Below are positions 57,868 through 58,314 of a stretch of DNA of 64,000 nt, piece after piece. The stretch lies in assembly GCF_003334405.1 (NCBI RefSeq), contig NZ_QOWM01000002.1. One strand, written 5' to 3'. The notes under the pieces were generated by a model. That model made no database searches. It was not told the origin of the DNA and saw only the letters and a program-made list of their open reading frames with translations. Numbering within the stretch: the stretch's first letter is position 1; each line of letters begins with the position of its first letter. Both the position numbers and the translations under genes were made by a program. The DNA is from Escherichia coli. GTDB taxonomy: Bacteria; Pseudomonadota; Gammaproteobacteria; Enterobacterales; Enterobacteriaceae.

Positions 57868-58314
57868 AAATTTCTCCTCTGTTGTTTATTTGATACCCAT
57901 CACACTTTCATCTCCCGGTTTTTTCGCCGGGAGATTTTCCTCATTTGAAATAAACTAATTTCACCTCCGTTTTCGCATTATATTTTCTAATGCCATTATT
58001 TTTTGATTTAGTGTTTTTTGACATTTTTTTAGCTCTTAATATTGTCTTATTCAAATTGACTTTCTCATCACATCATCTTTGTATAGAAACTGGTGTATTT
58101 TTTGGTTTTTTATTCTGTCGCGATTTTTGCATTTTTTAACCATAAGCTAATGTGATGATCAATTTTACCTTATGGTTAACAGTCTGTTTCGGTGGTAAGT
58201 TCAGGCAAAAGAGAACGATTGCGTTGGGGACCGGGAGTGGCTCCGATGCTGGGTTTCGTGGTGATAATTTCACCATGAAAAAGTTGTCAGCCCCGCTTAT
58301 TCAATGAGGACAAG
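57868..58314 (+). promoter_or_regulatory. gcvTHP promoter and upstream regulatory region
   Basis: ~450-bp AT-rich non-coding stretch with long A/T tracts upstream of gcvT; the gcv control region is known to bind GcvA, Lrp, PurR and CRP over several hundred bp; individual sites not resolved here. Confidence 0.6.

What the first reader, a model, noticed from the sequence alone, without database searches (positions are those of the whole stretch)
57868..58314. Long AT-rich gcvT upstream region
About 450 bp of non-coding, A/T-tract-rich DNA precedes gcvT. This is unusually long for this gene-dense window and consistent with multi-factor, DNA-bending-dependent control. I could not resolve individual sites with confidence by eye.
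Basis: partly seen in the sequence, partly recalled or inferred. Interest (0 to 1): 0.25.

Follow-up and report, generated by a model that had tools for sequence, protein, structure and literature searches.

The report
Known gcvTHP control region of E. coli
The long AT-rich stretch before gcvT is the classic, well-studied E. coli switch region for the glycine-cleavage operon; it is real and conserved, but already known, and not entirely non-coding because it holds the tiny gene yqfI.

Summary
Positions 57868-58314 are the 447-bp ubiI-gcvT spacer, 100% identical to E. coli K-12 MG1655. It is the second-longest of 50 gaps in the window. GC is 0.36 against 0.52 overall, and it carries 12 T-tracts on the + strand.

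It is the published gcvTHP control region, and every expected element is present:
- a CRP-like site
- the ubiI terminator hairpin
- GcvA sites 3, 2 and 1, each with CTAAT
- a T-tract spacer with the strongest predicted intrinsic bend in the 64 kb
- a weak extended -10 promoter
- a PurR box
- a ~106-nt leader

In 64 Enterobacteriaceae species the protein-site blocks are near-invariant. The 160-bp spacer between GcvA sites 2 and 1 is only 52% identical to E. coli, yet its length is 159-161 bp in every species. That fits the known GcvA/GcvR/Lrp loop model.

"Non-coding" is not strictly right. RefSeq annotates the 27-aa protein YqfI on the minus strand (57941-58024), over GcvA sites 3 and 2. Its ORF is intact in only 11 of 64 species and shows no coding-type constraint.

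There is no glycine riboswitch. One side finding may be new: the leader forms two covarying hairpins that match no Rfam family.

Verdict: already known, low interest.

The parts
57889..57904 (.). CRP-like site TTTGATACCCATCACA (9/10 of the TGTGA-N6-TCACA core)
   Evidence: one of 5 such sites in 64 kb. Right half TCACA is invariant in the species alignment, and its centre lies 58-59 bp from the site-3 CTAAT in 61 of 63 species. In many genera the left half overlaps the ubiI stop codon. CRP regulation of gcv: PMC1905917.
57910..57939 (+). ubiH-ubiI terminator-like hairpin (10-bp stem at 57910-57935, then UUUCC)
   Evidence: dG -17.6 kcal/mol, z -6.46, 0/200 shuffles fold as well. The CCCGG/CCGGG stem is conserved with variable loops. 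The U-tail is short, so the consensus scan did not call it.
57941..58024 (-). yqfI, annotated 27-aa small protein MSKNTKSKNNGIRKYNAKTEVKLVYFK
   Evidence: RefSeq annotation. SPA-tag immunoblot, and seen in tetracycline ribosome profiling (PMC6001520). ORF intact in 11/64 species only, with no third-codon relaxation. Within Escherichia almost all differences are nonsynonymous. No NCBIfam model.
57940..57964 (.). GcvA site 3 block CTCATTTGAAATAAACTAATTTCAC (CTAAT at 57955-57959)
   Evidence: CTAAT invariant in 64/64 species; block 80-100% conserved. CTAAT is the GcvA motif (PMC5002191; PMC3658693).
57970..57991 (.). GcvA site 2 block TTTTCGCATTATATTTTCTAAT (ATTA-N7-TAAT; 9/10 of ATTAG-N5-CTAAT)
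   Evidence: perfect ATTA-N7-TAAT, one of two in 64 kb. Most other species have the perfect ATTAG-N5-CTAAT/TTAAT repeat. It lies 32 bp from site 3 in 63/64 species.
57992..58140 (.). T-tract spacer (Lrp-binding region by literature) with predicted intrinsic bends near 58023 and 58095
   Evidence: Seven T-tracts >=4. Curvature peak of 23 deg/turn at 58023 is the highest in the window; 2/500 dinucleotide shuffles reach it. The peak is conserved at about -120 from the site-1 CTAAT across species. The site 2-to-site 1 segment (57987-58147) is 52% identical to E. coli but 159-161 bp in 64/64 species. Weak Lrp consensus match at 58103-58117 (12/15).
58141..58157 (.). GcvA site 1 core CATAAGCTAATGTGATG (CTAAT at 58147-58151)
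   Evidence: Essentially invariant in 64 species. It lies 49 bp from the -10 hexamer in 63/64 species.
58173..58201 (+). gcvT promoter: weak -35 TGGTTA (58173-58178), 17-bp spacer, extended -10 TGgTAAGTT (58193-58201). Inferred start near 58208.
   Evidence: CTTATGGTT and TGGTAAGTTCAG are near-invariant. The start site is inferred from -10 geometry and from the fit of recalled footprint coordinates to the conserved blocks. It was not measured here.
58209..58224 (.). PurR box AAGAGAACGATTGCGT (12/16 of ACGCAAACGTTTGCGT)
   Evidence: top score class in the window. Conserved as AGAGAACGTTTGCGT in most species. Escherichia carries A instead of T at 58218. PurR repression: PMC9501238.
58221..58293 (+). 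Structured part of the gcvT 5' leader: hairpin H1 (58221-58249), hairpin H2 (58254-58280), short helix GGG/CCC (58251-58253 with 58291-58293)
   Evidence: Single-sequence fold z -2.96. RNAalifold recovers H1 with compensatory pairs. H2 folds in most species with different sequences. Pair counts: 79.9% paired against 39-57% in slid controls on a sequence-only alignment. On a model-fitted alignment of 71 loci: 86.3% paired, 18/26 pairs with double changes. No Rfam match.
58275..58307 (+). 10-codon upstream [13 protein letters not shown] ending inside the gcvT Shine-Dalgarno sequence
   Evidence: Read from the sequence. Its ATG is not conserved (A 30%, T 10%, G 50%). Other genera have CGC or CAC there, which keeps H2 pairing.
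58306..58317 (+). gcvT Shine-Dalgarno GAGGA (58306-58310) and start codon (58315-58317)
   Evidence: GAGGA and ATG are invariant in 64 species. gcvT annotation.

Best explanation
The interval is the E. coli gcvTHP control region, a long, architecture-dependent sigma-70 regulatory region.

Reading 5' to 3' it contains:
- the ubiI stop codon
- a CRP-like site
- the ubiI terminator hairpin
- GcvA sites 3 and 2
- a ~150-bp T-tract spacer that binds Lrp and is intrinsically bent
- GcvA site 1
- a weak extended -10 promoter
- a PurR operator at the start of the transcript
- a ~106-nt structured leader

Published mechanism (not tested here): GcvA bound far upstream activates transcription when glycine is present. 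Without glycine, GcvR joins GcvA, and Lrp-assisted bending of the spacer brings the upstream sites and site 1 together in a repression loop. PurR adds purine repression and CRP adds carbon-source input.

Shown here: all motifs lie at the expected places. The spacer has a predicted bend. Spacer length, but not spacer sequence, is held constant across the family.

The small gene yqfI lies on the opposite strand over GcvA sites 3 and 2. It looks like a young, lineage-restricted ORF. The conservation under it belongs to the DNA sites, not to the protein.
For: Identity and context:
- 100% identical to MG1655 and present in 5426/5426 complete E. coli genomes.
- Annotation gives ubiI | yqfI | gcvT.

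Motifs:
- CRP core 9/10.
- Three CTAAT, all on the + strand (3 of 42 in 64 kb; 0.29 expected by length share).
- A perfect ATTA-N7-TAAT.
- PurR box 12/16.

Bending:
- T-tract bias of 12 T-tracts against 2 A-tracts.
- The curvature peak at 58023 is the highest in the window, and 0.4% of dinucleotide shuffles reach it.
- The peak position is conserved across species.

Comparative (64 species):
- Site blocks are near-invariant.
- Site 3 to site 2 is 32 bp in 63/64.
- Site 2 to site 1 is 159-161 bp in 64/64 at 52% identity.
- Site 1 to the -10 is 49 bp in 63/64.
- The better-conserved stretch from the PurR box to the gcvT ATG (most of the leader) varies from 56 to 113 nt.
- Within E. coli the spacer differs by 7-15% between strains without indels, while site 1 and the promoter show 0/68 differences.

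Literature:
- Loop model: PMC13104608.
- GcvA motif and footprints: PMC5002191, PMC3658693.
- PurR: PMC9501238.
- CRP: PMC1905917.
Against: - No protein binding was measured here.
- The original footprint papers were not held. The exact footprint coordinates, given relative to the start site, are from my memory of the Stauffer papers: GcvA -271 to -214 and -69 to -34; Lrp -229 to -92; CRP near -313; PurR around +1 to +17. Their close fit to the conserved blocks is an inference.
- The start site (~58208) is inferred, not measured.
- The Lrp consensus match is weak (12/15, one hit).
- The curvature model uses wedge angles recalled from Bolshoy/Trifonov 1991, so absolute values are not reliable. 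Only ranks and shuffles are.
- The tract count is not significant against dinucleotide shuffles.
Confidence: 0.9

Rival explanations
1. The interval is long mainly because it houses an independent gene (yqfI) with its own promoter and terminator, and the AT-richness reflects that gene rather than gcvT control.
For: yqfI is annotated and its tagged product was detected (PMC6001520). The ORF is kept open in the K-12, B, O55:H7, ST131 and E2348/69 strains of E. coli and in three other Escherichia genomes, including E. whittamii. The hairpin at 57910-57935 lies just 3' of its stop codon.
Against: - yqfI covers only 84 of 447 bp.
- The interval is just as long (about 376-455 bp in all but two of the species measured) in the 53 of 64 species where the ORF lacks a start or carries stops.
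- Conservation by codon position is 0.71/0.64/0.73, against 0.74/0.93/0.53 for the end of ubiI.
- Within Escherichia almost all differences are nonsynonymous.
- No convincing promoter lies upstream of it.
- No NCBIfam family.
Confidence: 0.05
2. The AT-rich DNA is a horizontally acquired or H-NS-silenced island, or otherwise unconstrained filler between two convergently evolving operons.
For: GC is low (0.29-0.36) and intrinsic curvature is high, which are typical H-NS preferences. The spacer is hypervariable within E. coli, at 7-15%.
Against: - It is present at the same locus in all 5426 E. coli genomes and between ubiI and gcvT in all 66 Enterobacteriaceae loci with enough upstream sequence to judge.
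- The site blocks are invariant and the spacer length is fixed to +/-1 bp. Filler DNA would not show this; compare the 56-113 nt variation between the PurR box and the gcvT ATG (most of the leader).
Confidence: 0.03
3. Glycine control is exerted through a leader RNA (a glycine riboswitch or attenuator) and the long upstream DNA is secondary.
For: Many bacteria control gcvT with glycine riboswitches (PMC13104608). The E. coli leader does carry conserved, covarying hairpins.
Against: - No Rfam hit to the glycine riboswitch or any relevant family, even at E<=10.
- Neither hairpin is followed by a U-tract.
- Three genera have shortened leaders of 77-90 nt that fit the model less well.
- The literature assigns glycine sensing to GcvR/GcvA.
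Confidence: 0.02

Closest known systems
E. coli K-12 gcvTHP control region (Stauffer laboratory: GcvA sites 3, 2 and 1, Lrp region, PurR operator, CRP site)
   Same: It is the same DNA: 100% identical to MG1655. All motif blocks are present and placed as in the published model.
   Different: Nothing differs in sequence. Added here: family-wide comparison showing a spacer with fixed length and free sequence, a conserved predicted bend, and overlap of sites 3 and 2 with the later-annotated yqfI.
Other looped or architecture-dependent enterobacterial promoters (ara, gal, ilvPG/IHF, Lrp-dependent pap and ilvIH)
   Same: Distant operator sites are joined by a bent or protein-bent spacer, and spacing and phasing matter more than spacer sequence.
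   Different: Here a LysR-type activator (GcvA) with an accessory protein (GcvR) forms the loop, and Lrp serves as the structural protein. The upstream sites lie about 215-270 bp from the start site.
gcvA-gcvB divergent control region (GcvA inverted repeat ATTAG-N5-CTAAT, PMC5002191)
   Same: Site 2 here is ATTAT-N5-CTAAT (9/10), and it is the perfect repeat in most other genera.
   Different: In gcvA-gcvB the sites abut the promoter (centred at -65 and -43). Here the strongest repeat lies more than 200 bp upstream.
Glycine riboswitch leaders of gcvT in Bacillus, Vibrio, Neisseria and Streptomyces
   Same: A structured leader lies in front of gcvT.
   Different: No match to the Rfam model. The fold is a simple two-hairpin one, and no ligand role is known or implied.
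E. coli small proteins found by sORF tagging (VanOrsdel 2018)
   Same: YqfI is one of the 36 detected proteins.
   Different: Its ORF lies inside transcription-factor binding sites, is restricted to Escherichia and some Citrobacter, and shows no sign of purifying selection.

Membership tests
gcvTHP control region of E. coli | Lies directly upstream of gcvT, downstream of ubiI (visC), with the K-12 sequence | tested here: met
   100% identity to MG1655; neighbours are ubiI and gcvT.
gcvTHP control region of E. coli | Three GcvA sites carrying CTAAT: two far upstream and one next to the promoter | tested here: met
   CTAAT at 57955, 57987 and 58147; invariant in sites 3 and 1 in 64/64 species. 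Motif definition from PMC5002191 and PMC3658693.
gcvTHP control region of E. coli | PurR operator at the transcription start | tested here: met
   12/16 match at 58209-58224. Conserved as a 13/16 match in other genera.
gcvTHP control region of E. coli | CRP site far upstream | tested here: met
   9/10 core at 57889-57904. Right half invariant. The left half is good only in Escherichia, Citrobacter and Salmonella.
gcvTHP control region of E. coli | Lrp-binding, bendable region between the upstream and proximal GcvA sites | tested here: inconclusive
   Only a weak Lrp consensus match (12/15). However, the region is AT-rich, has a predicted bend and is length-invariant.
gcvTHP control region of E. 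coli | Actual binding of GcvA/GcvR, Lrp, PurR and CRP, and glycine or purine response | not testable with these tools
   Rests on the literature. The primary footprint papers were not held.
Glycine riboswitch (Rfam RF00504) | Match to the covariance model in the gcvT leader | tested here: not met
   no hit at E<=10 in 57500-58700 on either strand.
Functional conserved small protein (YqfI) | ORF present and translated | tested here: met
   ORF at 57941-58024. Translation evidence is from PMC6001520, not tested here.
Functional conserved small protein (YqfI) | ORF conserved with the substitution pattern of a coding sequence | tested here: not met
   Intact in 11/64 species, with no codon-position signal. 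In seven pairwise Escherichia comparisons, differences in nonsynonymous codons total 37 against 3 in synonymous codons; the comparisons are not independent.
Intrinsic (Rho-independent) terminator after ubiI | GC-rich hairpin followed by a U-tract | tested here: inconclusive
   The hairpin is strong (-17.6 kcal/mol, z -6.5). The tail is only UUU(U)CC, the consensus scan did not call it, and the tail is weaker in other genera.

The most novel reading that the evidence does not exclude
The ~106-nt gcvT leader carries a two-hairpin RNA structure (58221-58293). It is conserved by compensatory change across Enterobacteriaceae and matches no Rfam family. It could be an undescribed post-transcriptional control or stability element of the glycine-cleavage operon, acting on top of the known transcriptional loop. 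Separately, yqfI may be a recently born ORF inside GcvA operator DNA whose expression reports or perturbs the state of the loop.
Probability: 0.25. Interest if true: 0.4.

Novelty: already known. Interest (0 to 1): 0.15.

Why it matters
The region is a textbook case of a bacterial promoter controlled by distant sites, an accessory repressor and an architectural protein, so re-finding it adds nothing new in itself. The comparative result gives an independent, sequence-only confirmation that geometry, not spacer sequence, is under selection: the spacer is fixed to +/-1 bp over 64 species while its sequence drifts. Two smaller points could be useful. First, a detected small protein (YqfI) sits inside transcription-factor sites and evolves like non-coding DNA, which bears on how many "new small proteins" are functional. 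Second, the gcvT leader has a covarying fold that no database describes.

Tried and rejected
- Original footprint papers were not held (Wilson 1995 PMC177269; Wilson 1993 PMC204979; Wonderling 1999 PMC93593 and DOI; Shi 2024 PMC11081524). Exact footprint coordinates are therefore from memory and marked as such.
- Conway 2014 has no held supplements for a measured start site.
- The Rfam scan gave only chance-level hits (RsaE and Yfr1 on the terminator hairpin, E>1).
- Consensus promoter and terminator scan: a + strand TTGACA-16-TATTGT at 58018-58045 scores 10/12. It is poorly conserved, and 2 sites were found against 1.3 expected, so I treat it as chance in AT-rich DNA.
- Search for a yqfI promoter on the minus strand: nothing better than 8/12.
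- Lrp consensus scan: one weak hit.
- The upstream [13 protein letters not shown] is rejected as a conserved leader peptide, because its ATG is absent outside Escherichia.
- NCBIfam has no model for YqfI.
- A/T-tract excess is not significant against dinucleotide shuffles.
- The GcvB regulon paper says nothing about gcvT leader control.

Full report
**What is at the coordinates**

On the + strand the window carries pepP, ubiH, ubiI, then gcvT, gcvH, gcvP. ubiI ends with TAA at 57865-57867 and gcvT starts at 58315. The finding therefore covers exactly the 447-bp ubiI-gcvT spacer.

The spacer is 100% identical to E. coli K-12 MG1655 and is present in all 5426 complete E. coli genomes searched. 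The whole window differs from one MG1655 record at 7 of 64,000 positions.

**Is it unusual?**

- Among 50 gaps between ordinary genes in the window, it is the second longest. The median is 117 bp.
- GC is 0.358 against 0.518 for the window, with a trough of 0.285-0.305 at 57900-58199.
- It holds 14 homopolymer tracts of four or more A or T. Twelve are T-tracts on the + strand, all between 57919 and 58166.
- The tract count beats mononucleotide shuffles but not clearly dinucleotide shuffles, so it largely reflects TT richness.
- Two other gaps in the window are similar in length and GC (galP-metK and tkt-cmtB).

The interval is therefore long and AT-rich, but not unique.

**"Non-coding" needs correction**

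RefSeq annotates a 27-aa protein, YqfI, on the minus strand at 57941-58024. VanOrsdel et al. 2018 (PMC6001520) detected the chromosomally SPA-tagged product. They note it was also positive in a tetracycline ribosome-profiling screen. The remaining 363 bp has no annotated gene and matches no Rfam family at E<=10, including the glycine riboswitch.

**Anatomy of the interval (5' to 3')**

| Element | Position | Evidence |
|---|---|---|
| CRP-like site TTTGATACCCATCACA | 57889-57904 | 9/10 of the core |
| Hairpin after ubiI, then UUUCC | 57910-57935 | -17.6 kcal/mol, z -6.5 |
| GcvA site 3 block, CTAAT at 57955 | 57940-57964 | |
| GcvA site 2 block, perfect ATTA-N7-TAAT ending in CTAAT at 57987 | 57970-57991 | |
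| T-tract spacer | 57992-58140 | |
| GcvA site 1 core CATAAGCTAATGTGATG | 58141-58157 | |
| Weak -35 (TGGTTA) and extended -10 (TGgTAAGTT) | 58173-58201 | |
| PurR-like box AAGAGAACGATTGCGT | 58209-58224 | 12/16, top class in the window |
| Leader of ~106 nt, ending in GAGGA and the ATG | 58209-58317 | |

- The hairpin is a probable ubiHI terminator. Its U-tail is short and the consensus scan did not call it.
- All three CTAAT lie on the + strand. That is 3 of the 42 in the whole window, where 0.29 would be expected by length share.
- The -10 geometry places the start of transcription near 58208. This is an inference.

With +1 at about 58208, the footprint coordinates I recall from the Stauffer papers fall on the conserved blocks found below. 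Those coordinates are GcvA -271 to -214 and -69 to -34, Lrp -229 to -92, CRP near -313, and PurR around +1 to +17. The papers themselves were not held, so this fit is supportive but rests on memory.

**What the held literature says**

- GcvA and GcvR form a complex without glycine. [quoted passage not shown]
- GcvA protects stretches of 35 and 57 bp upstream of gcvTHP. Its motif is CTAAT within T-N11-A (PMC5002191; PMC3658693).
- PurR represses (PMC9501238).
- crp inactivation lowers gcvT expression (PMC1905917).

**Bending**

I used a wedge model of DNA curvature, with angles recalled from Bolshoy and Trifonov 1991, so only ranks are meaningful.
- The highest peak in the whole 64 kb is at 58023, with a second peak near 58095.
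- Only 2 of 500 dinucleotide shuffles of the AT-rich core reach the observed maximum.

**Comparison across Enterobacteriaceae**

A degenerate pattern for the first 11 codons and the first two bases of the twelfth of gcvT retrieved 71 loci from species-representative genomes.
- The ubiI-gcvT gap is 376-455 bp in almost all of them.
- In an alignment of 64 species, the GcvA blocks, the promoter elements, the PurR box and the Shine-Dalgarno sequence are 80-100% conserved.
- CTAAT is invariant in sites 3 and 1.
- The TCACA half of the CRP-like site is invariant in the alignment. Its centre lies 58-59 bp from the site-3 CTAAT in 61 of 63 species. In many genera the other half overlaps the ubiI stop codon.

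The most telling result is the spacing:

| Segment | Length across species | Mean identity to E. coli |
|---|---|---|
| Site 3 to site 2 | 32 bp in 63/64 | 81% |
| Site 2 to site 1 | 159-161 bp in 64/64 | 52% (the lowest) |
| Site 1 to -10 | 49 bp in 63/64 | 80% |
| PurR box to gcvT ATG (most of the leader) | 56-113 nt | 70% |

- The T-tract bias and the predicted bend, about 120 bp upstream of the site-1 CTAAT, are also retained.
- Within E. coli the spacer differs by 7-15% between strains without indels. Site 1 and the promoter show 0 of 68 differences.

Selection on length and shape but not on sequence is what the loop model predicts.

**yqfI**

- The ORF is intact in only 11 of 64 species: Escherichia and part of Citrobacter. 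Elsewhere the start codon is missing or stops interrupt the frame.
- The DNA under its C-terminal 16 codons is nonetheless highly conserved, because that DNA is GcvA sites 3 and 2.
- Conservation by codon position is 0.71/0.64/0.73. The last ten codons of ubiI give 0.74/0.93/0.53.
- Among Escherichia alleles nearly every difference changes an amino acid.
- The 84-nt ORF is kept open in all eight Escherichia genomes looked at.
- No convincing promoter lies upstream of it, and NCBIfam has no model.

The simplest reading is a young, translated ORF riding on operator DNA. Function is neither shown nor excluded.

**Leader RNA (side finding)**

The E. coli leader folds into two hairpins, H1 (58221-58249) and H2 (58254-58280). 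A short GGG/CCC helix encloses H2 (z -2.96).
- RNAalifold on 36 species recovers H1 with compensatory changes.
- H2 forms in most species from different sequences.
- On the sequence-only alignment, 79.9% of cells pair, against 39-57% when partners are slid. The covariation score is 0.29 against 0.08-0.16.
- On a model-fitted alignment of 71 loci, 86.3% pair and 18 of 26 pairs show double changes, with 0 of 500 shuffles as high. That alignment leans towards the structure by construction.
- Neither hairpin is followed by a U-tract, so this is not an obvious attenuator.
- The 10-codon upstream ORF at 58275-58307 is not conserved. Its ATG is a variant of the 3' arm of H2.

**Verdict**

The added value is comparative confirmation of the architecture and two minor leads: the leader fold and the nature of yqfI.

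Noticed in passing
window 58221-58293 (+): The gcvT 5' leader has two hairpins plus a short enclosing helix. They are supported by compensatory changes across 71 enterobacterial loci and match no Rfam family. Function is unknown.
   Followed up: partly
window 58275-58307 (+): A 10-codon upstream ORF ([10 protein letters not shown]) has a stop codon overlapping the gcvT Shine-Dalgarno sequence. Its ATG exists only in Escherichia; other genera have CGC or CAC at that place.
   Followed up: yes
window 58025-58140: The T-tract spacer is hypervariable within E. coli: 8-17 differences per 116 bp between K-12 and the B, O55:H7, E2348/69 and ST131 strains. There are no indels, while the adjacent 68 bp (site 1 and the promoter) is identical. 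This is near or above typical synonymous divergence.
   Followed up: partly
window 58218: Escherichia carries A at the centre of the PurR box, where about 90% of other species have T, the consensus base. The E. coli operator is therefore a poorer match (12/16 against 13/16).
   Followed up: no
window 58018-58045 (+) and 58024-57995 (-): There are two promoter-like hexamer pairs: TTGACA-16-TATTGT (10/12) and ATGTCA-18-AATAAT (9/12). They sit at the yqfI start and the predicted bend. They are poorly conserved and no more frequent than in shuffles.
   Followed up: partly
window 57865-57904, and loci such as L064, L048 and L030: In many genera the gap is about 25 bp shorter, and the left half of the CRP-like site overlaps the ubiI stop codon (CGTTAA...TCACA). 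The control region then starts inside the upstream gene.
   Followed up: partly
L055; L024 and L025: L055 is labelled Chryseobacterium but carries an enterobacterial ubiI-gcvT locus. Its CRP-like site and leader/YqfI-frame sequence are identical or near-identical to those of Citrobacter sp. 18056 (L071) from the same project, so it is probably contamination or mislabelling. One Citrobacter MAG (HRGM_Genome_0066) has two gcvT loci, one E. coli-like and one Citrobacter-like, which suggests a chimeric bin.
   Followed up: no
(E. coli genomes): There are 5436 matches in 5426 genomes. A few genomes hold a second copy of this spacer, and one copy is on a plasmid.
   Followed up: no
window 57910-57935 (-): The ubiI terminator hairpin lies 5 nt 3' of the yqfI stop codon on the minus strand. 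There is no U-tract in that direction, so it might end or stabilise the yqfI transcript.
   Followed up: no
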